Shown in pieces: positions 30,856 through 53,763 of a stretch of 64,000 bases of DNA; position 1 is the first letter of the stretch, and each line of letters starts with the position of its first letter. The stretch covers positions 21,323 to 85,322 of the forward strand of contig JBDHZK010000001.1 in the NCBI GenBank assembly GCA_039811865.1. The letters run 5' to 3'. Position numbers and translations under genes: made by a program. The stretch is from Propionicicella sp. (GTDB lineage: Bacteria > Actinomycetota > Actinomycetes > Propionibacteriales > Propionibacteriaceae). The notes beneath the pieces are model-generated. The model had not been told where the DNA came from. It saw only the letters and a program-made list of their open reading frames with translations, and did no database searches.

Positions 30856-31041
30856 AAGTCGAAGGGTAGCCGTGGGGTCCGACGAGGATTGCGAGGTGTT
30901 TCCCCGAGTCGTCCCGCGCCGGACCCTGGTCGGGTGGCCTGCTCCGGCCGGACATCGCTGCGTCTGTCCCTCGTCGAGCCCCGTTCATGAGGCGGACGGG
31001 CGCCCTGGTTGTGGACTCCGAGAAATAGTTATCCACAGCTC

Positions 31042-31072
31042 TTGACTGGTCAGAAGCAAGGCTGTCTATAGT
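31042..31072 (+). promoter_or_regulatory. Candidate sigma-70-type promoter of the SOS cassette
   Basis: TTGACT (31042-31047) and TATAGT (31067-31072) in an unusually AT-rich patch. The 19-nt spacer is longer than optimal. Confidence 0.4.
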
Positions 31073-31080
31073 GGAGTCAC

Positions 31081-31096
31081 TCGAACAGGCGTTCGA
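31081..31096. promoter_or_regulatory. LexA operator (actinobacterial SOS box)
   Basis: Perfect palindrome TCGAAC-aggc-GTTCGA, identical to the mycobacterial/actinobacterial TCGAAC-N4-GTTCGA consensus. It lies 8 nt downstream of the -10-like hexamer and upstream of the dnaE2-containing operon. Confidence 0.8.
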
Positions 31097-31142
31097 TATC
31101 GAGCAAGGGAAGGCTCGATCGTGCCATCAGGCACACACGCAC

Positions 31143-31190
31143 CTTATCCCCGGTCGCTGCGGTCTCGACCCCGTCGCGGTCGGGGATAAG
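31143..31190 (+). promoter_or_regulatory. Leader RNA hairpin (15-bp stem) in the 5' UTR of the SOS cassette
   Basis: CUUAUCCCCGGUCGC (31143-31157) pairs with GCGGUCGGGGAUAAG (31176-31190): 13 Watson-Crick plus 2 G-U pairs, 18-nt loop. The G-U pairs exist only in the plus-strand transcript. Confidence 0.45.
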
Positions 31191-31204
31191 GCCCCGGTGA
31201 CGGG

Positions 31205-31546
31205 GTGGGGATTGGGGGAGGCATGCGCAGGTACGACGAGCCGATCGAAGTGCGCTCGGGGATGGTTGGTGAGGACGAGGCTCCCGCCCAGTTCCTTTGG
31301 CGCAACCGACTCTGGCTGGTGCGCGACGTGTTGCACCGGTGGCTGGAAACCGGCGAATGGTGGCGGGGTCCGAGCGTTCGCGCCGCCCGTGGCGACACCG
31401 ACGCCGAACCCGACGACGATCTCCTGGCCGAGGCAGAGGTTTGGCGAGTGCTGGCAGCGAACGGCAGGTCGGGGGAACCCGGGGTCTATGAACTGATGCA
31501 CACCTGGGGGAGCGGCCAGTGGCGGCTCCGGGCGGTGTTGGACTGA
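31205..31546 (+). CDS. Small conserved-looking protein (DUF6504-like; resembles the ImuB C-terminal domain)
   Basis: About 107-113 aa (GTG 31205 or ATG 31223). PIEVRSG...PAQFLWRNRLWLVRDVLHRWLETGEWWRG...EVWRVLAANGRSGEPGVYELMHTWGSGQWRLRAVLD. TGATG overlap with the next ORF. The family name is from memory. Confidence 0.6.
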   Translation: MGIGGGMRRYDEPIEVRSGMVGEDEAPAQFLWRNRLWLVRDVLHRWLETGEWWRGPSVRAARGDTDAEPDDDLLAEAEVWRVLAANGRSGEPGVYELMHTWGSGQWRLRAVLD

Positions 31547-32067
31547 TGGCGGCGCGGTCCGTCCCGGTGCAGCCTGGGCGAGCAGCACGACCAGGGGTGT
31601 CCGCGCGTCCAGTCGCATTGGCGATGACAATTGAGGGAGAAGGCGCGGAGTCGATCGACGGTCCGAGCGTGGCTCAGCCCAACCGGCTTCGACTGGATCT
31701 ACAACGGGCTCGAAGCGCGCTGATCGAGGCGGAACTGGCCGTTAGGCCCGCTGACCGGTTCCTCGGCGCACAACTCGGAGCACTGCGGGTGGCCGCGGTG
31801 GTGTTGTCGGCGCGTTCTGTCCGGCGTCCAGTTGGCAGCGGTCCCCGCAACGTCTGGGAACTCGTCGCCGACGTGGCCCCGGAGTACACCGAGTGGGCGG
31901 CGTTCTTCGCCGGCAACCAACTAAAGCAGCAGGTCGTCCGGGCAGGAGCCAAGGCCCTCGTCTCGGCCAGGGAGGCCGACGATCTGATCCGCGATGCGCA
32001 GAGATTCCACGACGAGATCGCCAGGCGGCTTGATGCCTGGGAGGCCAAGGCGGTGCAGGCGGGATGA
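31546..32067 (+). CDS. HEPN-like all-helical protein (SAV_6107-type, from memory)
   Basis: About 173 aa from ATG 31546. Helical, Ala/Arg-rich, with C-terminal RDAQRFH (Rx5H). Stop overlaps the dnaE2 start (ATGA at 32064-32067). Confidence 0.55.
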   Translation: MAARSVPVQPGRAARPGVSARPVALAMTIEGEGAESIDGPSVAQPNRLRLDLQRARSALIEAELAVRPADRFLGAQLGALRVAAVVLSARSVRRPVGSGPRNVWELVADVAPEYTEWAAFFAGNQLKQQVVRAGAKALVSAREADDLIRDAQRFHDEIARRLDAWEAKAVQAG

Positions 32068-35000
32068 GCGACCCTTTCGTCCACCTTCGAGTGGCCTCCG
32101 GCTACTCGCTGCAGTACGGCGCGGCGCACCCATCCGCTCTGGTAGCCAAGGCGGTGGCGCAAGACATGGACACTCTTGCGCTCACCGACCGGGACGGACT
32201 GTACGGCGCGGTCCGATTCGCGAAGGCCTGCCTAGCTACCGGTGTGGCGCCCATCGTCGGGGTCGACTTCGGCATCAAGCATGACCACGCGGAGTTGGCC
32301 CAGGCTCGGGTGACTTCGCGGACGCCGGTACGAGGCGGTGCGATCCGCGACGTACGTCTGCCCAGGGTGGTGACCTTGGCTACTTCTCGACGGGGCTGGG
32401 GTTCGCTGTGCCGACTGACCTCGGCGACCCATCTGGCCGGCCGAAGAGGTGAGCCGGCGTGTTCTAGGGAGTTGATCGCCGAGCACGGCGCCGACCTGGT
32501 GCTGCTATTGGGGGCGGATTCGGAGTTGGGCTTGGCATTGGCGGCGGGACTGCCGGAGTTGGCCGAACAGGTGCTTGCCGAGTGGCGTTCGGTGCTGCCC
32601 GATTCCCAGATCGTCGTCGCGGCGACCAACCACCAGTTGCCCGGGACGGGGCCTGGTTCAGCTGGGCACGCCGGGCGGATGATCGCCTTCGCCGACGCAC
32701 ACCGGCTGACCGGTGTGCTCACCAACAACGTTCGGATGGCCGAGCGCTCCCAGGCGGCCACGATCGACGTCCTCGACTCGGCCCGGCGATTGGTGCCGCT
32801 CGACATTCGCAATGTCGATCGGCGAAATGCCGAGGGCTATCTGAAATCGGGGAAGGAGATTCTGCCGCTGCTCGCCCAAGTCAGCCGGTTGGCCGGGCGG
32901 TCAGACGAGGGCGAACGGCTGATTCGAGACACCCGCAATCTGGCGGTCCGCGCGCGGCTGGATCCTCGGGCGGACATCGGCCTTGGAGAGATTCATCTGC
33001 CGGAGTTCGCGGTACTCGACGATTCAGGACGCGGCGGCGATGCGTTCGCCTTGCTGCGCCAGCGTTGCGAGGCTGGGGTGGTAGCCCGGTATCCGGGGAT
33101 GCCCTCGCCGCAGGTGCGGGATCGGCTCGAGGCCGAGTTGGACGTGGTGGGCGGGCTCGGGTTCGCGTCCTACTTTCTCACCGTTGCCGACGTGGTGCGG
33201 ATGGTCGGCGACCTGGGGATCCGGTGCGCGGCCCGTGGTTCGGGGGCGGGGAGCCTGATCAACTATCTATTGGGGATCTCGGGGGTCGATCCGATCCGCT
33301 ACGGCCTGATCATGGAGCGGTTCTTGTCCCCGCTGCGTCAGGCGCTTCCCGACATCGACCTGGACGTGGAGTCGGCGCGCCGCGAGGAGGTCTACACGGC
33401 GATCCTCGACCGGTTCGGCGGTGACCGCGTGGCCTGCGTCGCCATGCTCGACACCTACCGCGTGCGCCACGCCGTTCGAGATGTAGGAGCGGCACTCAGC
33501 TTGCCGCCCGCCGAGATCGACGCGATCGCGAAGTCCTTCCCGCACATTCGGGCTGCGGACGCCAAAGCCGCCCTAAGAGACCTTCCCGAGCTTCGACGCT
33601 CGGGGCTGGGGGAGCGGCGTTTGGATGTGCTGTTCTCCCTGGTCGAGTCGTTGGACGGCCTACCGCGACACGTCGCCCTGCACCCCTGCGGGGTGCTGCT
33701 CAGCGACACGACGCTGCTCGACCGGACGCCGGTAGAAGCCAGCTTCGCCGGGTTTCCGATGAGCCAGTTCGACAAGGACGACGTCGAGGACATGGGCCTG
33801 CTCAAGCTGGACGTCCTGGGGATCCGGATGCAGTCCGCGATGGCCCATGCCTTGGTGGAGATCAGCCGGGTCGAGGGTAAGGCCGTCGACATCGATTCGC
33901 TGAGCCCGTTCGATGATCCCCTGACCTATGACCTGATCGGGAAGGCGGCCACGCTGGGGTGCTTCCAGATCGAGTCCCCGGGGCAGCGTGAGTTGATCGG
34001 CAAGTTCGGGCCGAGCGATTTCGCCGACATCGTGATCGACATCTCGTTGTTCCGTCCGGGGCCGGTGAAGAGCGACATGGTGATCCCGTTTCTGGAGGCG
34101 CGACAGGGTTGGCGGCGCCCGATCTATCTGCATCCCGATCTCGAACCGGCATTGGCCGAAACCGGCGGGGTGGTGGTGTTCCACGAGCAGATCATCCAGA
34201 TCGTCGCGATCGTGACCGGGTGCTCGCTGGCACAAGGTGACGAGGCCCGTCGGGCGTTGGGCGACCCGCAGGGTCAGCGCGACGTGAAGCGCTGGTTCTT
34301 TCCCGCCGCCAGAGCGCGCGGTTATGCCGAGCCGGTGATCGAGCGCATTTGGCAAGTACTGGAGTCGTTCGCTTCCTTCGGCTTCTGCAAGGCGCACGCG
34401 GCGGCGTTTGCTTTGCCGACTTATCAGTCGGCCTGGCTGAAGACGCACTACCCAGCCCACTTTCTGTCTGGAGTCCTCACCCACGACCCGGGCATGTATC
34501 CGAAGCGTTTGATCCTGGAAGAGGCGCGTCGGCTCGGCATCGAGATCCTCGGCTTGGACGTGAACGCGAGCGAGGACACCTATCGCGTGGAGCGACTGTC
34601 GCCTGTGAAGCGACTGTCGGATTCGGTCCCCGAGGTTGTCGAAGGGGCGCATGCCCTAGCAGCACTCCCGCTAGAGATCACTGCGGGAACAGGTGCGCCG
34701 CCGGCCTCGGCGGTTCTAGCCCCGCGGACTCGAAGAGAACGCCGACTGCGGCCGGGGGATGGCCTGCCCGATGGCAGAGGGTACGGAATCCGGTTGGCGC
34801 TTTCCGACCTGTTGGGGATCAACTTAACCGAGACCGCGCGAATCGTCGCGGGACGTCCGTATCACTCCTTGTCCGACTTCTGGAGCCGGGCGCAGGTTTC
34901 GGCGCCGGTGGCCGAGCGACTTGTCCTGGCCGGGGCGTTCGATTCGATCTATGGCATCACCGGAGCCCACCCGGTACGGCGCCGAGAGCAGGTCACCAGG

Positions 35001-36167
35001 CGCGACCTGCTGCTCTCGCTGGCCGACATGATCCGCCTTGATCGGGTCGACGCGAGGATGCATGGCCGGGCTCGAGGACTACGCCTGGCAGCGAGCGTCG
35101 AACCGGACGGCCTGGAGAGGTCCGATCCGCGCGACGCCGCCAGACGGCAGTCCGCGCGAGCCGCGCAAGCGCGACCCCAGGAGGTGCAACTACCCCTTGA
35201 TCTTTGGGGTTCGACCGATCCGCTCCAACCGGCGATCGGGGTCGAGCCCGAGCTGAGCGCAGGTGTCACGCTTTCGACAACTCTGAGAACCGAAGGGTCC
35301 GGACGCGGTTCGCTCAACGATCGGGTCTGGCGGTTCGACCCCATGGACAGCCACGTCGGCGAGGATGACTCGTGCCTCGACGCGGCGCCGGCCCGGCTGG
35401 CTACCGCCGACGTCGTTCCCACCGGCCTTCCGGAGATGACCGACGACGAGCGTTTGGGCCAGGAGCTGGCGATCCTCGGATTGGACGCCAGCCGGCACCT
35501 GATGCACGGCTATTTGCCGTTCCTTGAAGCCATCGGGGTGACCTTCTCGGCAGACTTGCTGGCTCGGCGTAGCCGCAGTGACCTCCTGGTGGCCGGTGTG
35601 AAGGTGGCCACCCAGACCCCGCCGGTGCGTTCGGGGCGGCGAGTGGTCTTTCTTACTCTGGACGACACCACCGGGCCGGTGGACGCCACCTTCTTCGAAG
35701 ACGCTCAAGGGCCTTACGCGGCTACTGTCTTCGAGTCCTGGACGATGGTTGTTCGCGGAGAACTGCGTCGCACCGGCCCCCGAGGGGTGTCGTTGCGGGC
35801 GACCGGCTGCTGGGATCTGGACCATCTACATGGCATCTGGCTTCGCGAACTGGACGAGTCCGGCGACTTGGCGGCGGCTGTCCAAGCGGTGCACGAGGTG
35901 ATGACGATCGTCCCGGACGGCTTCGGGATGGTCGGCGAGGAAATCGCTGGCGATGCTGCCGAGGACGCTGCACAGCAACCCAGCCGAGGTGAAGCGGCCG
36001 ACGCCCAGCAGCACACCCGGGCTGGGGGCATGGGACGCCGTCGGGTGCTGGTGCACGCGAGCGGCTTCAAGCAATCTCCATACGCCGACGTGAAGCCTGC
36101 GGGGACGTCCGCGGCGGACGCTCCGCGCAAGCTATGGCACTCCAGCCCAGGAAGTTCGGGGCGATGA
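32064..36167 (+). CDS. dnaE2: Error-prone C-family DNA polymerase (DnaE2/ImuC type), unusually long at 1367 aa
   Basis: PHP-like N-terminus (HLRVASGYSLQYG, TLALTDRDGLYGAVRF), catalytic PDIDLDV and KLDVLGIRM, an HhH region, an OB-fold region, and a C-terminal tail VLVHASGFKQSPYADVKPAG...KLWHSSPGSSG. Preceded by an SOS box. Confidence 0.85.
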   Translation: MSDPFVHLRVASGYSLQYGAAHPSALVAKAVAQDMDTLALTDRDGLYGAVRFAKACLATGVAPIVGVDFGIKHDHAELAQARVTSRTPVRGGAIRDVRLPRVVTLATSRRGWGSLCRLTSATHLAGRRGEPACSRELIAEHGADLVLLLGADSELGLALAAGLPELAEQVLAEWRSVLPDSQIVVAATNHQLPGTGPGSAGHAGRMIAFADAHRLTGVLTNNVRMAERSQAATIDVLDSARRLVPLDIRNVDRRNAEGYLKSGKEILPLLAQVSRLAGRSDEGERLIRDTRNLAVRARLDPRADIGLGEIHLPEFAVLDDSGRGGDAFALLRQRCEAGVVARYPGMPSPQVRDRLEAELDVVGGLGFASYFLTVADVVRMVGDLGIRCAARGSGAGSLINYLLGISGVDPIRYGLIMERFLSPLRQALPDIDLDVESARREEVYTAILDRFGGDRVACVAMLDTYRVRHAVRDVGAALSLPPAEIDAIAKSFPHIRAADAKAALRDLPELRRSGLGERRLDVLFSLVESLDGLPRHVALHPCGVLLSDTTLLDRTPVEASFAGFPMSQFDKDDVEDMGLLKLDVLGIRMQSAMAHALVEISRVEGKAVDIDSLSPFDDPLTYDLIGKAATLGCFQIESPGQRELIGKFGPSDFADIVIDISLFRPGPVKSDMVIPFLEARQGWRRPIYLHPDLEPALAETGGVVVFHEQIIQIVAIVTGCSLAQGDEARRALGDPQGQRDVKRWFFPAARARGYAEPVIERIWQVLESFASFGFCKAHAAAFALPTYQSAWLKTHYPAHFLSGVLTHDPGMYPKRLILEEARRLGIEILGLDVNASEDTYRVERLSPVKRLSDSVPEVVEGAHALAALPLEITAGTGAPPASAVLAPRTRRERRLRPGDGLPDGRGYGIRLALSDLLGINLTETARIVAGRPYHSLSDFWSRAQVSAPVAERLVLAGAFDSIYGITGAHPVRRREQVTRRDLLLSLADMIRLDRVDARMHGRARGLRLAASVEPDGLERSDPRDAARRQSARAAQARPQEVQLPLDLWGSTDPLQPAIGVEPELSAGVTLSTTLRTEGSGRGSLNDRVWRFDPMDSHVGEDDSCLDAAPARLATADVVPTGLPEMTDDERLGQELAILGLDASRHLMHGYLPFLEAIGVTFSADLLARRSRSDLLVAGVKVATQTPPVRSGRRVVFLTLDDTTGPVDATFFEDAQGPYAATVFESWTMVVRGELRRTGPRGVSLRATGCWDLDHLHGIWLRELDESGDLAAAVQAVHEVMTIVPDGFGMVGEEIAGDAAEDAAQQPSRGEAADAQQHTRAGGMGRRRVLVHASGFKQSPYADVKPAGTSAADAPRKLWHSSPGSSGR

Positions 36168-37387
36168 GTGCCACTTCGACCCCTTACCGGCATCGAGGGG
36201 CGAGCGGGCCAGAGCGGGTGATCATGCACGTCGACATGGACGCGTTCTACGCCTCGGTGGAGTTGAACCGGCGTCCCGAGTTGGTCGGTAAGCCGATGTA
36301 TGTGGGCGGCGCCGATCGAGGAGTGGTGCTGTCTGCGAACTACGAAGCGCGTGCCTTCGGCATCTCCGGCGGAATGCCGTCGGTGCGGGCGCGCAGACTC
36401 TGCCCGGACGCGGTAGCCGTGCCAGCCGATTTCGATGCCTACGCTGACGCGTCGGCCGGTGTATTCGAGATCTTCCGCACGGTGACCACGGTGGTCGAGG
36501 TGGCCTCGATCGATGAGGCCTTTTGCGACCTCACCGGCTCGATCAAGATGTTGGGGCCGCCGTCAACGATCGGAGAGCACGTACGCGCGATGGTTGCCGA
36601 TGAGCAGCGAATCACTTGCTCGGTCGGAATCGGACCGAACAAGTTCGTCGCCAAGCTTGCCTCGCAACAGGCCAAGCCGGACGGCTTGGTCGAGGTCCGC
36701 GCGGGGGAGGTGGTCAGCTTCCTGCACCCGCTGCCGGTCGAGGCGATCTGGGGCGTGGGGGACAGCACGGCGGCGAAACTGCATCGGCTGGGGCTGAAGA
36801 CCATCGCCGACCTTGCCTACGTGCCCAAGGGAACGCTCCAGCGGGCGTTCGGACCCGTGCAGGGCGGCCTGCTCTCCGATTTGGCGTGGGGACGAGACAG
36901 CCGCCGGGTCGTCGGACCCGATACCGAACGCAGCATCGGTACCCAGGAGACCTTCGCTCAGGACACCGACGATCCGCAGATCGTGAAGACCGAACTCCTG
37001 CGGGTCGCGAGCAGGACGGCATCGAGACTGCGACAGGCGGGAATGCTGGGCAAGACCGTCGTCCTGAACCTGCGCTTCGCCGACTTCACCACGTTGACGC
37101 GGTCGGTGACCGCGCGCAGCCCCACGGATGTCACAGGGGAGATCTACGCCCTGGCGATCGGCCTGTACGACAAGCTCGCCCTCCAGCGGGCCAGGGTCCG
37201 CCGCGTTGGGGTTCGGGTCGAGGGGCTGGTCGAACGGGAGTTCGCCTATACCCAGCCCATGCTGGGAGATCCCGATCGCGGCTGGCGAGAGGCCGAGCAG
37301 GCCGCGGATGCGGCCATCGTCAGATTCGGTCCAAGGGCGGTCCAGCGAGCTGCTCTGACCAGAAGTGCGTCTTGGCCAGGCCGTTAG
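36164..37387 (+). CDS. dinB: Y-family DNA polymerase IV
   Basis: Start at ATG 36164 (ATGA overlap with the dnaE2 stop). HVDMDAFYASVE, VLSANYEARAFG and SIDEAFCDLTG catalytic motifs are intact. No obvious C-terminal QLxLF clamp motif. Confidence 0.9.
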   Translation: MSATSTPYRHRGASGPERVIMHVDMDAFYASVELNRRPELVGKPMYVGGADRGVVLSANYEARAFGISGGMPSVRARRLCPDAVAVPADFDAYADASAGVFEIFRTVTTVVEVASIDEAFCDLTGSIKMLGPPSTIGEHVRAMVADEQRITCSVGIGPNKFVAKLASQQAKPDGLVEVRAGEVVSFLHPLPVEAIWGVGDSTAAKLHRLGLKTIADLAYVPKGTLQRAFGPVQGGLLSDLAWGRDSRRVVGPDTERSIGTQETFAQDTDDPQIVKTELLRVASRTASRLRQAGMLGKTVVLNLRFADFTTLTRSVTARSPTDVTGEIYALAIGLYDKLALQRARVRRVGVRVEGLVEREFAYTQPMLGDPDRGWREAEQAADAAIVRFGPRAVQRAALTRSASWPGR

Positions 37388-37502
37388 CTGTTGATTTGAC
37401 CGGCATATGCGGGGCAGACCAACAGCAAACTGACTCCCGGTGGTGGGGGTGGGAGCGGATCGACCCAAACTCAACGAACGCGACCGGGAAACGACAAACG
37501 AA

Positions 37503-37528
37503 AGCGCGGTGGCCAAAACCACCGCGCT
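37503..37528 (-). terminator. Intrinsic terminator downstream of the DUF3040 gene (may also stop dinB readthrough)
   Basis: AGCGCGGTGG-ccaaaa-CCACCGCGCT, a 10-bp stem. On the minus strand it is followed by TTTCGTTTGTCGTTTCC. Confidence 0.6.
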
Positions 37529-37543
37529 CCTTCGAGGATCGCT

Positions 37544-37921
37544 TCACATGCCGTCGTCCTGCCGGCGGCGCCAGCGCTCCTCCATCCGGTCCATGAACCT
37601 GGAATCGGTCGAACCCGCCCGCTGCCGGTTGGGCGCGCTCTTGGGCGGTGCGTCGCCGACGTGCTGCCACGAGGTCAGCGCGATCACGGTAGACGCGAGC
37701 ATGATCACGAAGCCGATCACCGATACCACGGGGTGCCATTGCATGCCTGCGATCAGGCCAGCCAGGCCCACCAGGAAGCCGAACCCGGCGATCGCCGCAC
37801 GGCGCCGATGCAGGCGACGGTAGGTGGTTCCACGCAGCGTGCTAGCGAGCTTCGGATCCTCGGCAGCCAGAGCGGCTTCGAGTTGATCAAGTAGCCGCTG
37901 TTCGTTCTCCGAGAGGGCCAT
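37544..37921 (-). CDS. DUF3040-family small membrane protein
   Basis: 125 aa. MALSENEQRLLDQLEAALAAEDPKLASTL, then two TM helices. GGGAGG RBS 5 nt before ATG 37921. The 578-aa ORF-track reading upstream of it is an out-of-frame artefact over the transglutaminase gene. Confidence 0.75.
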   Translation of the reverse strand: MALSENEQRLLDQLEAALAAEDPKLASTLRGTTYRRLHRRRAAIAGFGFLVGLAGLIAGMQWHPVVSVIGFVIMLASTVIALTSWQHVGDAPPKSAPNRQRAGSTDSRFMDRMEERWRRRQDDGM

Positions 37922-38088
37922 CGTCGCCTCCCTAGGTGAGTGGGCCACCCCGCCGAGGCCGTTGGCTTCAGCCGGAAATCGATCGTCGTTTGAGTCGATC
38001 TGCTCCCAGTCTAGGTGCGCACAGCGTCCAATGAAACCCGTTGTCGGATGCTTTGACATCGACCCGCCGAGCAAGCGCCGACGTTCGT

Positions 38089-42750: not shown

Positions 42751-42766
42751 CTGGGGGGTGGGTCTC

Positions 42767-43195
42767 ATGTTCATGGGGCAGCACACGCCGAAGCTCGACG
42801 ACAAGGGCCGGTTCTTCCTGCCGGCGAAGTTTCGGGCGGAACTCGCCGACGGGGTCGTCATCACCAAGTCGCAGGAACGTTGCTTGGCGATCTACCCGGT
42901 CGGGGTGTACGCCGAAATCCTGCGCCGGGCGACCGCCGCGCCGACCGCCTTGAAGAAGGTGCGCGACTACCAGCGATACCTGGCCGCGCAAGCTTCGGAG
43001 GAGCGTCCGGACGCCCAAGGCCGGCTGACGATCCCGCCCATGCACCGCAGGTACGCGGGCTTGGTGAAGGACATCGCGGTCGTGGGTGCGGTCGACCGGC
43101 TGGAGGTTTGGGATCTGGACGCCTGGGAGGCCTACTCCGAGGCGAACGAGTCCGAGTTCGCCGATCTGAACGAGGAGGTCTTCCCGGGTCTGTGA
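42767..43195 (+). CDS. mraZ: Transcriptional regulator MraZ
   Basis: MFMGQHTPKLDDKGRFFLPAKFR plus a second SpoVT/AbrB-like half with DAQGRLTIP. First gene of the dcw cluster. Confidence 0.9.
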   Translation: MFMGQHTPKLDDKGRFFLPAKFRAELADGVVITKSQERCLAIYPVGVYAEILRRATAAPTALKKVRDYQRYLAAQASEERPDAQGRLTIPPMHRRYAGLVKDIAVVGAVDRLEVWDLDAWEAYSEANESEFADLNEEVFPGL

Positions 43196-43224
43196 TCCGG
43201 ATGACCGTCGCCGCCCACGCGCTG

Positions 43225-43309
43225 TGGCTTCAGCCTTCGGGGCCCGTCCCCCTGGCGCACCTTCCCCGGTGCCAGGTGGTCTTCCCCGGGATTCGAAGGC
43301 TGAAACCAG
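43225..43309 (+). ncRNA. Long imperfect hairpin in the mraZ-rsmH spacer, consistent with the actinobacterial mraW RNA motif
   Basis: Outer stem GGCTTCAGCCTTCG (43226-43239) pairs with CGAAGGCTGAAACC (43294-43307), 13/14 pairs. Inner pairings CGGGG/CCCCG and CCTGGC(gc)ACC/GGTGCCAGG. Located immediately 5' of rsmH (mraW). Confidence 0.5.
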
Positions 43310-43364
43310 AGTGCGCGGGCGTCGGTGAGCCGGCGCGCCGAAGGCGGCCGAGGTGAGGATCGAG

Positions 43365-44327
43365 ATGGACGAGCCGACCCGCCGGCCGGGGCATGTTCCC
43401 GTCCTGGAGGACCGGGTCGTCGAGCTCTTGGCTCCGGCACTCGCCGGGGCCGAGTCCGTTTATGTCGACTGCACGCTCGGTCTCGGTGGGCATGCGGAAG
43501 CGATCCTGAACCGTTGCCCGAACGCGTCTCTGATCGGCATCGATCGCGACCCGGCGGCCCTGGAGCGCGCGGGGCAGCGCCTGGCGCCCTTCGGTGACCG
43601 GGTCCGGCTGGTCGAGGCCGTGTACGACCGGCTGGGCGAGGTCCTGGCGGACGCCGGCAGGCCGCAGGTCCAGGCCGTCCTTCTCGACCTCGGGCTGTCA
43701 TCGCTGCAGATCGACGACCGCTCACGTGGCTTCGCCTACGCGACGGACGCCCCACTGGACATGCGGATGGGGACGACCGCCCGGACGGCCGCCGACGTGG
43801 TGAACACCTACAGTGCAGGCGAGCTGGCCCGCATCCTGCGCTGGTACGGCGAAGAACGCTTCGCCGACCGGATCGCTCGCCGGATCGTGGCCGAGCGAGC
43901 CGCGGAACCGTTCGCGTCGTCCGAGCGCCTGGTCCGGGTCCTGAGCGACGCCATCCCCGCGGCCGCCCGGCACAGCGGGGGACACCCGGCCAAGCGGACG
44001 TTCCAGGCGCTTCGGATCGAGGTGAACGCCGAGTTGGACGCCCTGGCCGGCGTCCTGCCGCAAGCCGTTGACGCGCTCGCCCTGGGCGGACGAATCGCCG
44101 TGCTGGCCTACCACTCGCTCGAGGATCGGCTGGTCAAGCAGGCGTTCCGGGCCGCTACCAGCGACCGGGCGCCGAGAGACCTGCCGGTCGTGCCGCGCGA
44201 GTTGCGCGCCCAGCTCCGGCTGTTGACCCGCGGGGCTGAGCGTCCGGGCGTCACGGAAGTCCAAACCAATCCGAGGGCCGCGTCGGCCCGGCTGCGCGCG
44301 GCAGAGCGTTTCGAGGAGGCGGCATGA
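43365..44327 (+). CDS. rsmH: 16S rRNA (cytosine1402-N4)-methyltransferase
   Basis: [14 protein letters not shown] and [16 protein letters not shown] motifs. ATG 43365 is preceded by GAGGA at 5 nt (the ORF track offers GTG 43353). Confidence 0.9.
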
Positions 44328-44965
44328 GCTCGTTGTGGGCACCCCTGCGGGGACTGACCGATCGGCAGGAGCGGTCCCGGTTGCGGTTGCGCCTGCTCCG
44401 CAGCCCGGCGCGACGCCTGGCCCGCCTGCCGTTCCTGTTGGTCCTCGCCTCGATCCTCGCGGTCGGCATGATCGGCGTCCTGGTGCTGAACACCACCCTG
44501 CAGGACCAGGGCTTCCAGATGCGCGCCCTGCAGCGGCAGTCGACCGAGCTCGGCTATACCGAGGCCGACCTGAAGCTGCAGGTCGACCAGGCGCGCGCTC
44601 CCGAGGAGATCGGACGCCTGGCGTCCCGCTTGGGGATGCGGGCCAATACCCACGCGGTGTACGTCCAACTGCCCAGCGGAAAGATCCTCGGCACCCCCAC
44701 CCCCGTGTCGAGCGAGGACATGCCAAGCCTCGTGGTAAAGACCAAGGAGGAGGTCGACGCAGAGGCTCGCGCCCGCGCCGAAGCCGCCCAGCAGGCCAAG
44801 GCTCGGGCCAAGGCCGAAGCCGAAGCGAAGGCCAAAGCGGAAGCTGAAGCCAAGGCCAAGGCGGAGGCTGAGGCGAAGGCGAAAGCCGAAGCCGAGAAGA
44901 AGAAGCAGCAGGCCAGCGTGAAGCCCACGCCCAAGCCGAGCACGAAGAAGCCAGGAGGCCGTTGA
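44324..44965 (+). CDS. ftsL: FtsL-like septation protein with an Ala/Lys/Glu repeat tail
   Basis: Position between rsmH and ftsI. Basic N-terminus, one TM ([21 protein letters not shown]), a coiled-coil segment, then a KAEAEA-type low-complexity tail. Confidence 0.7.
44762..44899 (+). repeat. In-frame GCC/AAG/GAA-rich low-complexity repeat encoding (A/K/E) repeats
   Basis: Encodes [46 protein letters not shown]. Confidence 0.8.
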
Positions 44966-46872
44966 TGCCGAACAGCGCCGGGCGCCGCCCCTCACCTCGG
45001 TCGGCGCGCGGGCCGCTGATCGGTGATCGGATCGCTGCCTACCTCAACGGTCGTCCCCAACCCCGCGGACGCCGCCGCGTCACCCGCCTGCCGCTGGCCG
45101 ACTCCGTGGGGCGCATCAGGATCGTGTTGTTGGCCCTCGCGATCCTGATCTCCCTGTGCGCCGGTCGGGCGTTGCAGGTCCAGGCATTCGACCCCGATGC
45201 GTACGCGGACGAGGCCGCGCGCGCGATCACGCAGTCGCAGGTGCTGCCCGCGATGCGCGGTCAGTTCACCGACCGGACCGGGCAGATCCTCGCCACCACA
45301 GTCCCGGCCGTCTCGATCATCGCCGACCCGGTGATGATCGCCACCAACGGCCGCAAATCCGACCAGATGAAGCCCTCGGACATCGAGTTCGCCAAGAACG
45401 CGCCGGGGCAGATCGCCGCGATTCTCGCCAAGCACATCGGAGGCACGCCGGAGCAGTATCTGGCCGCGCTGACCAAGCCCAATCTGCGCTACTCCATCGT
45501 TGCCAAGGGCGTGCCGTCCATTACTTACGAGGAAATCCGCAAGGACATCAGCGAAGGCAACCTGATCGGGATCTACCGCGAAGTCCACCCGTTGCGCACC
45601 TACCCGGGCAAGACCCTCGCGGCCAACGTGCTGGGCTTCGTGAACGCCGACGGCGTCGGCTCCGGTGGCCTGGAGTACTCGCTGAACAGCCAACTGGCCG
45701 GCACGGCGGGCCGGGAGATCTACACGAACTCACCGGACGGCCGGATCCCGCTCGGGTACAGCGTCGTCACCCCGGCGGTGAACGGCATCAACTACCAGTT
45801 GACGCTGGACGCCGAACTGCAGTGGATGGCCGAGCGCCGGATCGCCGACACCGTGGCCCAGACCCGAGCCAAGTCGGGCACGCTGATCGTCCTCAACGTG
45901 AAGACGGGCGAGATTCTTGCGATGGCGAACGCGCCCACCTTCGACCCGAACAACCCGTCGGCGGCCAAACCGGCCGCACTCGGCAACAACGCCATCACCA
46001 ACGCCTACGAGCCCGGCTCGGTGGAGAAGGTCCTGACGATGGCTGCGCTCGCCGACGCCGGCCTGGTGACCGCCGACACGCACGTGGAGGTGCCGGGCAG
46101 GATCGCGTCCGACGGCGGCTCCATCAAGGACGCCTGGCCGCACGACACGCTCTACCTGACGGCCCGCGGCGTGGTCGCCTACTCGTCCAACATCGGCACG
46201 CTGAAGCTGGCCCGCTCAATCGGGAAGGACAAGCTGCTCGACTACCTGAAGTCGTTCGGGCTCGGCGCCAAGACCGGGCTACCGCTGCCTGGCGAGGGGG
46301 CGGGGCAACTCCCGCCGGCGAGCATGCGCGATGGCGTCAAGGACCAGATCGCCTTCGGTCAGGGCCTCAGCGTGACGGCTATCCAGGAGGCGGCCGCCAT
46401 CGCCGGCATCGTGAACGGGGGCGTCTACAATCCGCCCTCGCTGATCAAGTCGGCCACCGACGGCGCCGGTAACCCGGTGGCGATCGCCAAGCCGCAACCC
46501 CGGCGAATCATCTCCCCGGAGGCTTCGGCGACGGTGCGAGACATGATGCAGGCGGTCGTGACCAGCGCTGCGGCCCACAAGATTTTCCCCATCGAGAACT
46601 TCCGCACCGGTGCCAAGTCGGGCACGGCCGAGAAGTTCCAGCAGTCGTGCCACTGCTACTCCGGCTACGTGACCTCGTTCATCGGCACAGGCCCGATCGA
46701 GGACCCGCAACTGCTCACCTACGTGGTGCTGGACGAGCCGGCAGAGGGTCAGCATCACGGCAGCATCAGCGCTTCCCCGGCATACCGGGACATCATGCGC
46801 ATCGCGCTGCCGCGCTACGGCGTGAAGCCCTCGGACGGGCCCGACATCGAACGCGAGATCACCTACGCCTGA
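44962..46872 (+). CDS. ftsI: Division-specific class B penicillin-binding protein (transpeptidase)
   Basis: TM anchor, PBP dimerisation region, and transpeptidase motifs SVEK (SxxK), SSN and KSGT. Confidence 0.9.
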   Translation: MMPNSAGRRPSPRSARGPLIGDRIAAYLNGRPQPRGRRRVTRLPLADSVGRIRIVLLALAILISLCAGRALQVQAFDPDAYADEAARAITQSQVLPAMRGQFTDRTGQILATTVPAVSIIADPVMIATNGRKSDQMKPSDIEFAKNAPGQIAAILAKHIGGTPEQYLAALTKPNLRYSIVAKGVPSITYEEIRKDISEGNLIGIYREVHPLRTYPGKTLAANVLGFVNADGVGSGGLEYSLNSQLAGTAGREIYTNSPDGRIPLGYSVVTPAVNGINYQLTLDAELQWMAERRIADTVAQTRAKSGTLIVLNVKTGEILAMANAPTFDPNNPSAAKPAALGNNAITNAYEPGSVEKVLTMAALADAGLVTADTHVEVPGRIASDGGSIKDAWPHDTLYLTARGVVAYSSNIGTLKLARSIGKDKLLDYLKSFGLGAKTGLPLPGEGAGQLPPASMRDGVKDQIAFGQGLSVTAIQEAAAIAGIVNGGVYNPPSLIKSATDGAGNPVAIAKPQPRRIISPEASATVRDMMQAVVTSAAAHKIFPIENFRTGAKSGTAEKFQQSCHCYSGYVTSFIGTGPIEDPQLLTYVVLDEPAEGQHHGSISASPAYRDIMRIALPRYGVKPSDGPDIEREITYA

Positions 46873-46918
46873 CCAAGTCCGGGCGCGGTTCGCGGGGAAG
46901 TAGATAGCGTGTCGAGCG

Positions 46919-48451
46919 ATGGATGACGTGAGCCCGACGATGCGCCCCACCGGCCTGGCCGGGGTGCGCTTTCGAGACCTGTTCGGGAGGGCTGTCGCCG
47001 CCGAGGCGGGGGATCCGATCGTCACCGGGGTGACGCTCGACTCTCGCCGGGTGCGACCAGGGGATCTCTACGTCGGCCTGCCTGGCCGCCTCACCCACGG
47101 GGCCCGATTCGCGGGGACGGCGCTTGCGGCCGGAGCGGTAGCGGTGCTGACCGACGCCGACGGCGCGGCCCAACTGGCCCCCGGAGTGGCCGTGGCCGTG
47201 GTCGGCGACCCGCGGCTGGCCATGGCCCAGGCTGCGGCAACGGTTTACGGTCGGCCGGCCGAGCGTCTGACGATGTTCGCGATCACGGGGACGAACGGAA
47301 AGACCAGCACCACGTTCATGGTGGAGGCCGGCCTGGCCGCGTCCGGCCGGGTGGCCGGAACATTGGGGACCCTCGGCTTTCGGCTGGACGGCCATGCCCT
47401 GGCCGCATCGAGGACCACCGTGACCACCCCGGAATCGTCCGACCTGCAGGCGATCCTGGCCGTCATGGAGCAGGGTGGAGCCTCTTGCGTGGTGATGGAG
47501 GTCTCCTCGCACGCATTGGCGATGGATCGGGTGGCCGGGGTCCGGTTCGACGTCGCCGCATTCACGATGCTCGGCCACGACCACCTCGACTTCCACCCGA
47601 GCATCGACGACTACTTCGAGGCCAAGGCAGCGCTGTTCGCCCCGGAGCGCACGCGGGTGGCGGTGGTGAACATCGACGATCGCTGGGGTGCGAAGCTGGC
47701 CGACCGCATCACGTCCCAAGGTGAGGTGCGCCTCTTCTCGACGAGCAACTCACGCCCGGCCGACTACCGGATCCGCGGCTGGCGGCCCCGCCCCGACGGA
47801 GGCAGCGACATCGACCTCGAAACCCCGCGAGGTGCCCTGCGCTTCGGCGTGGCGATGCCGGGCGAGTTCAACGTCCGCAACGCGGTGACCGCGCTGGCGA
47901 TGCTGGTGGCCGGCGGGGTTGAGCCGGCCGACGCCGTCCGTGGGCTCGAGTCCGCATCGGTCCCCGGCCGGATGCAACGAGTCGACTTGCCGGGCGGCCC
48001 GAACGTCGTCGTGGACTTCGCGCACACACCCGAGGCGGTGGCTGCGGCGCTGGCGGCGCTGCCTGGGCGCAAGGTCGCCGTGCTGGGCTGCGGGGGAGAC
48101 CGCGATGCGGCCAAACGCGGCCCGATGGGCGCAGTGGCGGTTCGGGGGGCAGACGTGGTCGTCGTGACGGACGACAACCCTCGCAGCGAGGACCCGCAGG
48201 CCATCCGCGCGGCCGTCCTGGCTGGGGCCAAGGCTGCGGCGACCAGGGGCCAGACGGTACTGGACGGCGGGGATCGCCGCTCCGCGATCACCACTGCGCT
48301 CGGCCTGGCCCGGCGCGGCGATTGGGTCGCGATCCTGGGAAAGGGCCATGAGCAAGGCCAGCAGATCGGGGACACCACCCTGCCGTTCGACGACGTGCGG
48401 GTAGTGGGGGAGCAGTGGGCGGGGATGGCCGGCCCGGAAGGGGGTCAGTGA
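46919..48451 (+). CDS. murE: UDP-N-acetylmuramoyl-L-alanyl-D-glutamate--2,6-diaminopimelate ligase
   Basis: Mur ligase P-loop ITGTNGKTST, DNPR motif (TDDNPRSEDP), dcw position. Confidence 0.9.
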   Translation: MDDVSPTMRPTGLAGVRFRDLFGRAVAAEAGDPIVTGVTLDSRRVRPGDLYVGLPGRLTHGARFAGTALAAGAVAVLTDADGAAQLAPGVAVAVVGDPRLAMAQAAATVYGRPAERLTMFAITGTNGKTSTTFMVEAGLAASGRVAGTLGTLGFRLDGHALAASRTTVTTPESSDLQAILAVMEQGGASCVVMEVSSHALAMDRVAGVRFDVAAFTMLGHDHLDFHPSIDDYFEAKAALFAPERTRVAVVNIDDRWGAKLADRITSQGEVRLFSTSNSRPADYRIRGWRPRPDGGSDIDLETPRGALRFGVAMPGEFNVRNAVTALAMLVAGGVEPADAVRGLESASVPGRMQRVDLPGGPNVVVDFAHTPEAVAAALAALPGRKVAVLGCGGDRDAAKRGPMGAVAVRGADVVVVTDDNPRSEDPQAIRAAVLAGAKAAATRGQTVLDGGDRRSAITTALGLARRGDWVAILGKGHEQGQQIGDTTLPFDDVRVVGEQWAGMAGPEGGQ

Positions 48452-49887: not shown

Positions 49888-49901
49888 AGGGGAGACGGGC
49901 G

Positions 49902-52462: not shown

Positions 52463-52472
52463 GAGTTACCCG

Positions 52473-53750: not shown

Positions 53751-53763
53751 GCGGAGGAATCGC

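What the first reader, a model, noticed from the sequence alone, without database searches (positions are those of the whole stretch)
31042..37387. SOS-box-fronted, translationally coupled four-gene cassette: small ImuB-CTD-like protein / HEPN protein / oversized DnaE2 / DinB, with no imuA'-imuB in the window
Seen in the sequence:
- A perfect TCGAAC-N4-GTTCGA palindrome (31081-31096) lies 8 nt downstream of a TTGACT-19 nt-TATAGT promoter-like pair, in a locally AT-rich patch.
- Four plus-strand ORFs follow, and their stop and start codons overlap: TGATG at 31544-31548, ATGA at 32064-32067, ATGA at 36164-36167.

Established knowledge:
- TCGAAC-N4-GTTCGA is the LexA operator consensus in mycobacteria and related actinobacteria.
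- DnaE2-dependent damage-induced mutagenesis normally requires ImuA' and ImuB from a separate imuA'-imuB operon, with ImuB supplying the beta-clamp contact.

Inference: a C-family error-prone polymerase and an apparently catalytically intact Y-family polymerase (DMDAFYASVE, SIDEAF) sit in one LexA-controlled unit with two small uncharacterised proteins. This could be a self-contained alternative mutasome. It could also couple SOS mutagenesis to a HEPN (RNase-type) activity. I know of no functional description of this arrangement.
Basis: partly seen in the sequence, partly recalled or inferred. Interest (0 to 1): 0.7.

Follow-up and report, generated by a model that had tools for sequence, protein, structure and literature searches.

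The report
SOS-controlled split-ImuB DnaE2/Pol IV mutasome operon
This is a DNA-damage-inducible operon for two error-prone DNA polymerases and a small adaptor protein, of a kind already described by comparative genomics in 2013-2026; the one unreported feature is a small, apparently non-enzymatic HEPN protein that sits inside it and is itself damage-regulated across many Actinobacteria.

Summary
A perfect TCGAAC-N4-GTTCGA box (31081-31096) follows TTGACT-19 nt-TATAGT, and four tightly packed plus-strand genes follow. They encode:
- a stand-alone ImuB-C protein (Pfam DUF6504);
- a HEPN_SAV_6107 protein;
- a 1367-aa DnaE2;
- a catalytically intact Y-family polymerase.

The cassette is not new as a kind. 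It matches the "DnaE2B-PolY-[ImuB-C]-RecA" putative mutasome of Actinobacteria (NAR 2026). The three shared proteins are 53-63% identical to the modelled Tessaracoccus lapidicaptus set.

In 80 related genome loci:
- ImuB-C and DnaE2 co-occur strictly.
- The promoter/SOS-box layout is conserved. Box density is 0.95/kb upstream of the HEPN gene against 0.019/kb elsewhere.
- DnaE2 proteins of 1189-1569 aa are normal for the group.

The HEPN protein lacks the Rx4-6H catalytic motif, so an RNase link is unsupported. It is an ancestral gene beside the cell-division (dcw) cluster and also occurs without DnaE2, with its own SOS box. No paper searched mentions it in this context, and its role is open.

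Verdict: new member of a known kind, moderate interest.

The parts
31042..31047 (+). -35-like hexamer TTGACT
   Evidence: Read directly. A TTGAC(G) hexamer at the same distance from the -10 and the SOS box is conserved in most of the 73 related promoters examined.
31067..31072 (+). -10-like hexamer TATAGT (TAnnnT), 19 nt after the -35-like hexamer
   Evidence: The consensus scan does not call it because of the 19-nt spacer, but that spacer is itself conserved in relatives.
31081..31096 (.). LexA-type SOS box TCGAACAGGCGTTCGA, a perfect palindrome placed about +2 to +17 relative to the inferred transcription start
   Evidence: A box with up to one mismatch is present upstream of the HEPN gene in 32/32 type A, 23/25 type B and 13/13 type C related loci.
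31097..31222 (+). Structured 5' leader containing an 11-bp inverted repeat (CCTTATCCCCG at 31142-31152, its complement at 31181-31191)
   Evidence: RNA fold of 31073-31225 gives -74.8 kcal/mol, z = -3.64. No Rfam match. The repeat is unique in the window. Function unknown.
31223..31546 (+). ORF1: stand-alone ImuB-C protein (107 aa, Pfam DUF6504), the predicted DnaE2-binding adaptor
   Evidence: Pfam E = 7e-17. 53% identical to T. lapidicaptus VEP41449, labelled ImuB-C in NAR 2026. Model is a beta-barrel-like fold with pLDDT 84 and no PDB fold match. Strict co-occurrence with DnaE2 in the related loci.
31546..32067 (+). ORF2: HEPN_SAV_6107 family protein (173 aa if it starts at ATG 31546; the conserved core is about residues 50-160); non-catalytic; start uncertain
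   Evidence: Pfam E = 3e-23. No Rx4-6H motif; READDLxRD stands in its place. Helical-bundle model with pLDDT 84; best PDB fold hits are HEPN proteins 1wol, 1ufb, 2hsb and 3o10. The stop overlaps the DnaE2 start (ATGA), as in at least 12 relatives.
32064..36167 (+). ORF3: DnaE2 (group DnaE2B), 1367 aa. Polymerase active site intact, PHP exonuclease site degenerate, variable inserts, conserved C-terminal tail ending ...KLWHSSPGSSGR
   Evidence: Pfam PHP, DNA_pol3_alpha, finger, HHH_6 and OB domains. 57% identical to the first 399 residues of T. lapidicaptus DnaE2B. PDIDLD and KLDVLG motifs are present. Aligned to M. tuberculosis DnaE1, HLHNH becomes HLRVA, TDH becomes TDR and MLDG becomes LQYG. 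Variable or insert regions at residues 841-900, 1051-1110 and 1291-1320.
36164..37387 (+). ORF4: active Y-family polymerase (DinB/PolY-core type) with a C-terminal clamp-binding-like QPMLGD and a RecA-N-terminus-like AEQAADAAIVRFGPRAV motif
   Evidence: Pfam IMS and IMS_C. DMDAFY and SIDEAF motifs. 63% identical to T. lapidicaptus PolY VEP41451. Catalytic and C-terminal motifs are conserved in orthologues.
37501..37530 (.). 13-bp GC-rich hairpin between convergent dinB and the DUF3040 gene: the likely end of the operon
   Evidence: Terminator-like site. The DUF3040 gene lies on the minus strand at 37547-37927.

Best explanation
This is a LexA-repressed operon encoding an ImuA'/ImuB-less 'split-ImuB' translesion complex of the DnaE2B-PolY-[ImuB-C]-RecA type.

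Proposed mechanism:
1. In undamaged cells, LexA on the box at 31081-31096, just downstream of the -10 hexamer, blocks transcription (inferred).
2. After DNA damage, RecA-stimulated LexA cleavage derepresses one polycistronic mRNA. Overlapping stop and start codons then give roughly co-ordinated synthesis of four proteins (co-linearity is shown; co-transcription is inferred).
3. The small ImuB-C beta-barrel binds the inactive PHP domain of DnaE2 (inferred from published AlphaFold models of orthologues).
4. The Y-family polymerase supplies the beta-clamp contact (QPMLGD) and a RecA-binding motif, which are jobs ImuB and ImuA' do in mycobacteria. Here it also keeps its own catalytic site (motifs are shown; binding is inferred).
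5. DnaE2 has an intact polymerase site and no proofreading, and it extends past lesions.

The HEPN_SAV_6107 protein is co-expressed and has no nuclease motif. It is most likely a non-enzymatic accessory or an independent SOS-regulon protein that the polymerase genes happen to flank. Its role is not established.
For: Domain assignments:
- Pfam and NCBIfam assign ImuB-C (DUF6504), HEPN_SAV_6107, DnaE and Y-family polymerase domains to the four ORFs.

Orthology to the published Tessaracoccus lapidicaptus system, which its authors rated 'good tetramer complex modeled':
- ImuB-C 53% identity, PolY 63%, DnaE2 N-terminus 57%.
- The NAR 2026 text describes this as the fourth DnaE2B group, Actinobacteria-only, in genomes without ImuA or ImuB.

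Conservation in 80 related loci:
- 33 loci carry ImuB-C-HEPN-DnaE2-[methyltransferase]-PolY, across Propionibacteriales, Micrococcales, Kineosporiales and others.
- Every complete locus with DnaE2 also has ImuB-C.

Regulation:
- The perfect SOS box and the TTGAC-N19-TAnnnT-N7-9-box layout are conserved.
- The Streptomyces dnaE2-dinB2 operon has an SOS box and is induced about 6-fold by UV.

Catalytic and binding features:
- PolY catalytic and C-terminal motifs are present and conserved.
- DnaE2 keeps its catalytic aspartates but has lost PHP metal ligands.

Context:
- There is no second PolY, RecA/ImuA, DnaE or ImuB-C in the window.
Against: - No experiment exists for this subtype. The complex is known only from structure prediction of orthologues.
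- In Streptomyces, deleting dnaE2 changed neither UV killing nor UV mutagenesis, so a mutagenic role for DnaE2B enzymes is unproven.
- The whole genome could not be searched for imuA, imuB, lexA or recA.
- The -35/-10 pair has a non-canonical 19-nt spacer.
- The PolY orthologue and the HEPN gene also occur at the same chromosomal site without DnaE2 or ImuB-C (25 loci). PolY may therefore act simply as an ordinary Pol IV.
Confidence: 0.72

Rival explanations
1. The HEPN_SAV_6107 protein is a genuine fifth component or regulator of the polymerase complex. For example, it could be a non-catalytic adaptor that gates access of PolY or DnaE2 to RecA filaments or the clamp. This extends the best explanation rather than replacing it.
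For: - The gene is nested between ImuB-C and DnaE2 in all 33 type A loci, and its stop overlaps the DnaE2 start (ATGA) in at least 12 of them.
- It is preceded by a conserved SOS box in 68 of 70 type A, B and C loci.
- In 25 loci it pairs with PolY alone.
- In 13 Pseudonocardiaceae loci it pairs with a distant ImuB-C-like protein (hhalign probability 81%, E = 1e-5).
Against: - In the Streptomyces loci the same family sits at the same chromosomal site with no SOS box and no polymerase nearby.
- Published four-protein models reach good scores without it.
- The published Arthrobacter DnaE2-ImuB-C pair has consecutive accession numbers, so there is no annotated gene between them.
- No fusions to repair domains appear among the 150 best family representatives.
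- No complex prediction could be run here.
Confidence: 0.3
2. The locus is co-regulation without a joint complex. It would be an ancestral SOS-controlled HEPN-PolY(Pol IV) unit next to the dcw cluster, into which a DnaE2 + ImuB-C pair was recruited or from which it was lost. PolY then works as an ordinary Pol IV, and DnaE2-ImuB-C works as a separate two-protein polymerase.
For: - PolY and HEPN orthologues occur in the same syntenic position without DnaE2 or ImuB-C (type B, 25 loci).
- In 16 of those loci dinB has its own second SOS box.
- PolY identity to the window protein is similar in both locus types: 59-65% in type B and 64-68% in Propionibacteriaceae type A loci.
- NAR 2026 lists a DnaE2-[ImuB-C]-only group.
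- A methyltransferase gene separates DnaE2 from PolY in many type A loci.
Against: - PolY has the RecA-N-terminus-like motif typical of organising subunits of multisubunit mutasomes.
- A published tetramer model for the orthologous set was rated good.
- DnaE2-to-PolY stop/start overlap or near-abutment occurs in the window and in several relatives.
Confidence: 0.25
3. The cassette couples SOS mutagenesis to a HEPN RNase or toxin activity. A related version is that the small genes form a HEPN-type toxin-antitoxin or defence module.
For: The only positive evidence is the HEPN fold: Pfam E = 3e-23 and fold hits to HEPN proteins, including HEPN-MNT toxins, at weak E-values.
Against: - No Rx4-6H motif in 22 aligned relatives.
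- The family is listed as motif-less in the HEPN survey.
- No MNT nucleotidyltransferase partner is present.
- PADLOC gives only a marginal hit at E = 0.002.
- The locus is a conserved chromosomal backbone, not an island.
Confidence: 0.03

Closest known systems
DnaE2B-PolY-[ImuB-C]-RecA putative mutasome of Actinobacteria (NAR 2026, PMC12926913; representatives Tessaracoccus lapidicaptus and Janibacter indicus)
   Same: Same three proteins, 53-63% identical, in the same order ImuB-C ... DnaE2 ... PolY. PolY is active and carries a RecA-N-terminus-like motif. ImuB-C is stand-alone. The host is a Propionibacteriaceae-like bacterium.
   Different: The publication does not mention the HEPN gene that lies between ImuB-C and DnaE2. 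In Janibacter the accession numbers skip exactly one gene at that position. It also does not describe the SOS-box promoter. This window's DnaE2 has an extra ~60-aa insert at residues ~1051-1110.
Mycobacterial ImuA'-ImuB-DnaE2 mutasome
   Same: SOS-inducible. DnaE2 has a dead PHP domain. An ImuB-C domain is the presumed DnaE2-binding module. The Y-family member carries clamp- and RecA-type-binding motifs.
   Different: There is no ImuA'. The Y-family protein is catalytically intact and is not fused to ImuB-C. The DnaE2 belongs to a different group (DnaE2B rather than DnaE2A). All genes lie in one operon.
Streptomyces dnaE2-dinB2 operon (Tsai et al. 2012, PMC3273824)
   Same: A 4-bp ATGA dnaE2-dinB fusion, an SOS box upstream, and UV/MMS induction shown experimentally there. 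The DnaE2 is of the DnaE2B group.
   Different: Timinskas & Venclovas rate Streptomyces DinB2 as inactive, and they report no ImuB-C there. In Streptomyces the SAV_6107 HEPN gene sits elsewhere (beside a methyltransferase and a DUF3040 gene) and has no SOS box.
HEPN-M (SAV_6107) family, Pfam PF18726 (Anantharaman et al. 2013)
   Same: ORF2 is a clear member (E = 3e-23). The family is actinobacterial and lacks the motif.
   Different: No gene context or regulation was recorded for the family. Here it is shown to lie behind a conserved LexA-type box and beside PolY, DnaE2 and ImuB-C in many genera.
lexA-imuB-C-polY operon of Geobacter sulfurreducens, and ImuB-C/DinB operons (Aravind et al. 2013; Timinskas & Venclovas 2019)
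   Same: A stand-alone ImuB-C with an active Y-family polymerase under SOS control.
   Different: Those operons lack DnaE2 and HEPN, and they often encode LexA itself.

Membership tests
DnaE2B-PolY-[ImuB-C]-RecA system (NAR 2026) | DnaE2 of the DnaE2B group | tested here: met
   57% identity over the first 399 residues of the published T. lapidicaptus DnaE2B. Same cassette context in 33 loci. No phylogenetic tree was built.
DnaE2B-PolY-[ImuB-C]-RecA system (NAR 2026) | Stand-alone ImuB-C protein encoded with DnaE2 | tested here: met
   Pfam DUF6504 E = 7e-17. 53% identity to VEP41449, labelled ImuB-C. Beta-rich model with no PDB fold match, as published for ImuB-C.
DnaE2B-PolY-[ImuB-C]-RecA system (NAR 2026) | Apparently active Y-family polymerase carrying a RecA-N-terminus-like motif | tested here: met
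   DMDAFY and SIDEAF motifs are present. The C-terminal AEQAADAAIVRFGPRAV resembles the RecA N-terminus KALEAALAQIEKAHGKGSV, judged by inspection. 63% identity to VEP41451.
DnaE2B-PolY-[ImuB-C]-RecA system (NAR 2026) | Genome encodes no ImuA and no ImuB | not testable with these tools
   Only 64 kb is available. None is found in the window.
DnaE2B-PolY-[ImuB-C]-RecA system (NAR 2026) | Physical complex including RecA | not testable with these tools
   No multimer prediction or experiment was possible. This rests on published models of orthologues.
Canonical ImuA'-ImuB-DnaE2 mutasome | Catalytically dead Y-family protein fused to ImuB-C (ImuB), plus a RecA-like ImuA' | tested here: not met
   PolY keeps its catalytic D, D and E residues and ends after the RecA-N-terminus-like motif. 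ImuB-C is a separate 107-aa protein. There is no RecA/ImuA-like sequence in the window.
LexA (SOS) regulon, actinobacterial type | TCGAAC-N4-GTTCGA operator overlapping or abutting the promoter | tested here: met
   Perfect palindrome 8 nt after the -10 hexamer. Its position is conserved in 68 of 70 type A, B and C loci, a 50-fold enrichment.
LexA (SOS) regulon, actinobacterial type | LexA binding and damage induction | not testable with these tools
   Needs EMSA or ChIP and expression data. UV induction is shown only for the Streptomyces dnaE2-dinB2 operon.
Catalytic HEPN RNases and toxins | Rx4-6H active-site motif | tested here: not met
   The corresponding helix reads R-E-A-D-D-L-x-R-D with no histidine, and this is invariant in 22 relatives. 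The family is listed as lacking the motif.
HEPN_SAV_6107 (PF18726) | Match to the family profile above the curated cut-off, with a helical HEPN fold | tested here: met
   82.5 bits against a cut-off of 27.2. Model pLDDT 84, with top fold hits to HEPN structures.
Error-prone DnaE2 (as against replicative DnaE1) | Intact polymerase site, degenerate PHP proofreading site, no tau-binding C-terminal domain, damage-regulated | tested here: met
   PDIDLD and KLDVLG are present. PHP ligand positions are replaced when aligned to M. tuberculosis DnaE1. Only a short conserved tail follows the OB domain. NCBIfam scores lie below both curated cut-offs: 611 bits against 939 for the error-prone polymerase model, and 623 against 1002 for DnaE1. 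The assignment therefore rests on orthology and context.

The most novel reading that the evidence does not exclude
HEPN_SAV_6107 is an overlooked, non-catalytic component of the actinobacterial SOS response that works with the Y-family polymerase, ImuB-C and DnaE2. It could be a fifth mutasome subunit or a regulator of polymerase access. The grounds are three: it sits behind a conserved LexA box in Propionibacteriales, Pseudonocardiales, Kineosporiales and Micrococcales; it is translationally coupled to DnaE2; and it persists next to PolY or an ImuB-C-like protein even where DnaE2 is absent.
Probability: 0.3. Interest if true: 0.6.

Novelty: new member of a known kind. Interest (0 to 1): 0.4.

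Why it matters
DnaE2-type mutasomes drive damage-induced mutation, and hence drug-resistance evolution, in Actinobacteria. The ImuA'/ImuB-less variants are known only from genome comparison and structure prediction.

This locus adds one more example and contributes two points of wider use:
- The whole class shares a conserved LexA-box promoter, and about 40% of relatives also carry a PafBC-type (RecA-independent) promoter element. That gives a direct handle for induction experiments.
- A widespread small HEPN protein of unknown function is embedded in these operons and is under SOS control. The published models do not include it, so it becomes a concrete candidate to test in pull-downs, complex prediction and deletion mutants.

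Tried and rejected
- I assumed from memory that SAV_6107 lies next to dnaE2-dinB2 in Streptomyces. This was tested and is wrong. In the three Streptomyces loci the HEPN gene is followed by a methyltransferase and a DUF3040 gene, with no polymerase or SOS box nearby.
- A first clustering suggested a second, short 'DinB-like' gene. This was a single-linkage artefact. The gene is a class I SAM methyltransferase.
- An intein or extra domain as the reason for the long DnaE2: no such Pfam hit. The extra length lies in poorly conserved inserts.
- A riboswitch or known RNA in the leader: no Rfam match.
- A repeated element for the leader hairpin: it is unique in the window.
- Solved structures for ImuB-C or HEPN by sequence: none.
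- Fold search of the ImuB-C model: nothing significant.
- A defence-system reading: PADLOC is negative apart from one marginal hit.
- Sampling more distant HEPN contexts from metagenome contigs: the contigs were too short to be informative.
- A second SOS-like box at 37230-37245 lies inside the dinB coding region. It is not at a promoter and is treated as chance.

Full report
**1. The observation**

- TTGACT lies at 31042-31047 and TATAGT at 31067-31072, with a 19-nt spacer.
- The perfect palindrome TCGAACAGGCGTTCGA lies at 31081-31096, 8 nt further on.
- GC content drops to 51% around 31000-31119, in a window that averages 68.6%.
- Four plus-strand ORFs follow: 31223-31546, 31546-32067, 32064-36167 and 36164-37387. 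Their junctions are TGATG, ATGA and ATGA.
- At up to one mismatch the box occurs twice in the window, against 0.25 expected.

Two caveats apply.
- The consensus promoter scan does not call the hexamer pair, because it allows only 16-18-nt spacers.
- The start of ORF2 is uncertain. Its first ~45 residues are not conserved among relatives, and gene callers use the GTG at 31519. Coupling of ORF1 to ORF2 is therefore plausible but not shown. The ATG of ORF3 matches the N-termini of orthologues, so the HEPN-to-DnaE2 ATGA overlap is firm.

**2. What the genes are**

*ORF1 (107 aa)* is a stand-alone ImuB-C protein.
- It matches Pfam DUF6504 at E = 7e-17.
- It is 53% identical to Tessaracoccus lapidicaptus VEP41449, which Venclovas and co-workers label ImuB-C.
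- Its predicted structure (pLDDT 84) is a six-stranded beta fold with a disordered loop at residues 45-70. It has no significant match in the PDB. This agrees with the published view that ImuB-C is a novel beta-barrel.

*ORF2* is a HEPN_SAV_6107 protein.
- The Pfam match is E = 3e-23.
- The model (pLDDT 84) is a helical bundle whose best PDB fold matches are HEPN proteins.
- The catalytic Rx4-6H motif is absent. The equivalent helix reads READDLxRD in all 22 aligned relatives.
- The HEPN survey lists this family as lacking the motif.

*ORF3 (1367 aa)* is a C-family polymerase.
- It has PHP, palm, finger, HhH and OB domains.
- The catalytic aspartates are present (PDIDLD, KLDVLG).
- Aligned to M. 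tuberculosis DnaE1, the PHP metal ligands are replaced: HLHNH becomes HLRVA, TDH becomes TDR, and MLDG becomes LQYG.
- It is 57% identical to the first 399 residues of the published T. lapidicaptus DnaE2B.
- Orthologues in the same cassette are 1189-1569 aa long, so the size is a group trait.
- Poorly conserved inserts lie at residues 841-900, 1051-1110 (largely specific to this organism) and 1291-1320. The C-terminal tail is conserved.

*ORF4* is a Y-family polymerase.
- The catalytic motifs are intact (DMDAFY, SIDEAF).
- The C-terminus carries QPMLGD, which resembles the E. coli Pol IV clamp motif QLVLGL (that resemblance is from my own knowledge).
- This is followed by AEQAADAAIVRFGPRAV, which resembles the RecA N-terminus.
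- It is 63% identical to the T. lapidicaptus PolY.
- The catalytic motifs are conserved in 47 of 50 orthologues examined, and the C-terminal motif in 38 of them.

**3. Surroundings**

The cassette lies in the conserved actinobacterial backbone next to the cell-division (dcw) cluster.
- Upstream, on the minus strand, lie a UvrD-like helicase, an FAD oxidoreductase and a DUF4126 protein.
- Downstream lie a convergent DUF3040 gene (37547-37927), then a TgpA-like transglutaminase, a DUF58 protein and a MoxR ATPase. After these come mraZ (42758) and the dcw genes through ftsZ (57276).
- A 13-bp hairpin at 37501-37530 probably ends the operon.
- The window contains no second Y-family gene, RecA/ImuA-like gene, DnaE gene or ImuB-C gene.
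- It contains no Rfam family and no tRNA.
- Near-identical copies of the locus occur in many metagenome assemblies.

**4. Related loci**

A scan of one genome per species with a HEPN profile returned 80 loci. I classified them by tblastn and HMM searches.

| Type | Gene order | Loci | Taxa |
|---|---|---|---|
| A | ImuB-C - HEPN - DnaE2 - [SAM methyltransferase] - PolY - DUF3040 | 33 | Propionibacteriaceae incl. Tessaracoccus and Arachnia; Dermatophilaceae; Ornithinimicrobium; Mobilicoccus; Kineosporiaceae; Nanopelagicales; a Mycobacteriales MAG |
| B | HEPN - [methyltransferase] - PolY - DUF3040 (no ImuB-C, no DnaE2) | 25 | Mostly Propionibacteriaceae (Micropruina and others) and unclassified Actinomycetota MAGs |
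| C | small protein - HEPN - methyltransferase - DUF3040 | 13 | Pseudonocardia, Actinomycetospora |
| D | HEPN - methyltransferase - DUF3040, no polymerase | few | Streptomyces and others |

- The small protein in type C is distantly ImuB-C-like (hhalign probability 81%, E = 1e-5).
- ImuB-C and DnaE2 co-occur in every complete locus that has DnaE2. Only one locus has ImuB-C without DnaE2. This is the pattern expected if ImuB-C is the DnaE2-binding module.
- The HEPN stop overlaps the DnaE2 start by ATGA in at least 12 loci.
- The sample consists of the best tblastn hits and is biased towards Propionibacteriaceae.

**5. Regulation**

Anchoring on the SOS box shows one promoter layout across types A, B and C: cTTGACg, 19 nt, TAnnnT, 7-9 nt, then TCGAAC-N4-GTTCGA.
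- Boxes with up to one mismatch occur at 0.95 per kb in the 1 kb upstream of the HEPN gene, against 0.019 per kb elsewhere.
- They are present in 32/32 type A, 23/25 type B and 13/13 type C loci.
- Sixteen type B loci carry a second box just before dinB.
- The three Streptomyces loci have none.
- In 30 of 73 promoters the spacer also contains TGTCRG..-8 nt-TAnnnT. Thirty of the 34 matches to that pattern in 2.17 Mb lie at this promoter.
- That pattern is the mycobacterial RecA-independent promoter consensus tTGTCRgtg-8 nt-TannnT, which is the PafBC target.
- The window itself lacks the element in register. It has GGTCAGAA 11 nt before the -10 hexamer.
- The 126-nt leader is unusually structured (z = -3.64). 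Its function is unknown.

**6. Comparison with what is known**

- Aravind et al. (2013) linked stand-alone ImuB-C proteins to DinB and DnaE2 operons.
- The 2026 NAR survey defines a fourth DnaE2B group. It has an active PolY, stand-alone ImuB-C and RecA, occurs only in Actinobacteria, and is found in genomes without ImuA or ImuB.
- The 2026 supplement gives a 'good tetramer' model for T. lapidicaptus and Janibacter indicus. The present cassette is an orthologue of that system.
- Experimental data exist only for the related Streptomyces dnaE2-dinB2 operon. It has an SOS box and is induced about 6-fold by UV, but deleting dnaE2 gave no UV phenotype.
- None of these papers mentions HEPN, and neither do the 2026 supplementary files.
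- In the Janibacter model the accession numbers (APH01277, APH01279, APH01281) skip exactly the positions where the HEPN and methyltransferase genes lie in my loci.
- The only paper found for 'SAV_6107' records no context for the family.

**7. Mechanism and rivals**

The best-supported reading is a LexA-repressed operon for a split-ImuB mutasome.
- ImuB-C binds the dead PHP domain of DnaE2.
- PolY organises the clamp and RecA contacts and remains catalytically competent.
- DnaE2 extends without proofreading.

What is shown:
- the gene identities;
- the catalytic and binding motifs;
- the orthology to the modelled system;
- the conserved operator and promoter layout;
- the strict ImuB-C/DnaE2 co-occurrence.

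What is inferred:
- LexA binding;
- co-transcription;
- complex formation;
- mutagenic output.

The HEPN gene can be read two ways.
- It may be an ancestral neighbour of PolY with its own place in the SOS regulon. The evidence is that it occurs without DnaE2, and in Streptomyces without any SOS box or nearby polymerase.
- It may be a real accessory subunit. The evidence is its nesting, its coupling to DnaE2, and its persistent pairing with PolY or ImuB-C-like proteins.

I put the second reading at about 0.3. A HEPN RNase or toxin role is very unlikely, because there is no catalytic motif, no MNT partner and no defence-system match.

**8. Verdict**

The finding is real and well described. Its core is a new member of a kind already defined computationally. 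The 'oversized' DnaE2 and the HEPN-RNase idea do not hold up.

What remains of interest is the unreported, widely conserved SOS control of a motif-less HEPN protein embedded in these polymerase operons, together with the conserved dual LexA/PafBC-type promoter in relatives.

Noticed in passing
L003, L004, L005, L029, L066 and 25 other related loci, about 25-35 nt upstream of the SOS box; the window equivalent is 31048-31072: 30 of 73 related promoters carry TGTCRG..-8 nt-TAnnnT between the -35-like hexamer and the SOS box. This is the RecA-independent (PafBC) promoter consensus of mycobacteria, and 30 of the 34 matches in 2.17 Mb lie at this promoter. It implies dual LexA/PafBC control in many relatives. 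The window lacks it in register (GGTCAGAA with an 11-nt spacer).
   Followed up: partly
L001, L005, L008-L012, L014, L016, L017, L019, L020, L022-L024, L026, L027 and other type B loci: 25 loci, mostly Propionibacteriaceae and unclassified Actinomycetota MAGs, have HEPN-[methyltransferase]-PolY at the same chromosomal site but no ImuB-C or DnaE2. 16 of them have a second SOS box within 150 nt of dinB.
   Followed up: partly
L041, L042, L052, L054, L056-L058, L063, L064, L070, L074, L076, L080 (about 200-600 nt upstream of the HEPN gene): In Pseudonocardiaceae an SOS box precedes a ~105-aa protein with no Pfam hit that is distantly ImuB-C-like (hhalign probability 81%, E = 1e-5). HEPN follows it, and there is no DnaE2 nearby. 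This may be an ImuB-C-like/HEPN pair that functions without a polymerase gene next to it.
   Followed up: partly
L003 12598-13353, L004, L025, L035, L038, L049, L051, L053, L055, L059, L060, L072, L078, L079: A class I SAM-dependent methyltransferase gene (~250 aa) lies between DnaE2 and PolY in many type A loci, and after HEPN in types B, C and D. It is absent from the window. Its substrate is unknown.
   Followed up: no
window 31142-31191 (within the leader 31097-31222): An 11-bp perfect inverted repeat (CCTTATCCCCG and its complement) lies in a strongly structured 5' leader (z = -3.64). There is no Rfam match and it is unique in the window. Two C/T polymorphisms occur inside it among near-identical strains. 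It could be an attenuator or an RNA-stability element.
   Followed up: partly
window 37230-37245: A second SOS-like box with one mismatch (TCGAACGGGAGTTCGC) lies inside the 3' coding part of dinB (codons for VEREFA). It is not at a promoter, and the protein segment is not conserved in relatives. Probably chance.
   Followed up: partly
window 35214-35393 (DnaE2 residues ~1051-1110): A ~60-residue insertion between the HhH and OB domains is present in fewer than 20% of 25 aligned orthologues. It looks like low-complexity or disordered sequence and has no domain hit.
   Followed up: partly
window 37547-37927 (minus strand): The DUF3040 membrane-protein gene that follows dinB on the same strand in most relatives is inverted here, as in the Tessaracoccus antarcticus (L066) and Arachnia (L047) loci. 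It converges on dinB across a hairpin at 37501-37530.
   Followed up: yes
Supplement of PMC12926913 (Janibacter indicus APH01277/APH01279/APH01281; T. lapidicaptus VEP41449-VEP41451): The published complex models skip one gene number between ImuB-C and DnaE2 in Janibacter, which is the position where HEPN lies in my loci. In T. lapidicaptus the numbers are consecutive, so the HEPN ORF may be unannotated or absent there. This was not checked against the genome.
   Followed up: no
window 8726-10489 (minus strand): A 587-aa protein with an N-terminal DnaQ-like RNase_T exonuclease domain. From memory it resembles mycobacterial Rv2191. It lies 20 kb from the cassette, and no link to the cassette was examined.
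   Followed up: no
window 42758-61192: A complete dcw cell-division cluster lies immediately downstream of the TgpA/DUF58/MoxR genes. It begins with mraZ and includes ftsZ; the other genes were not individually annotated. This shows the cassette sits in core chromosome, not in a mobile island.
   Followed up: partly
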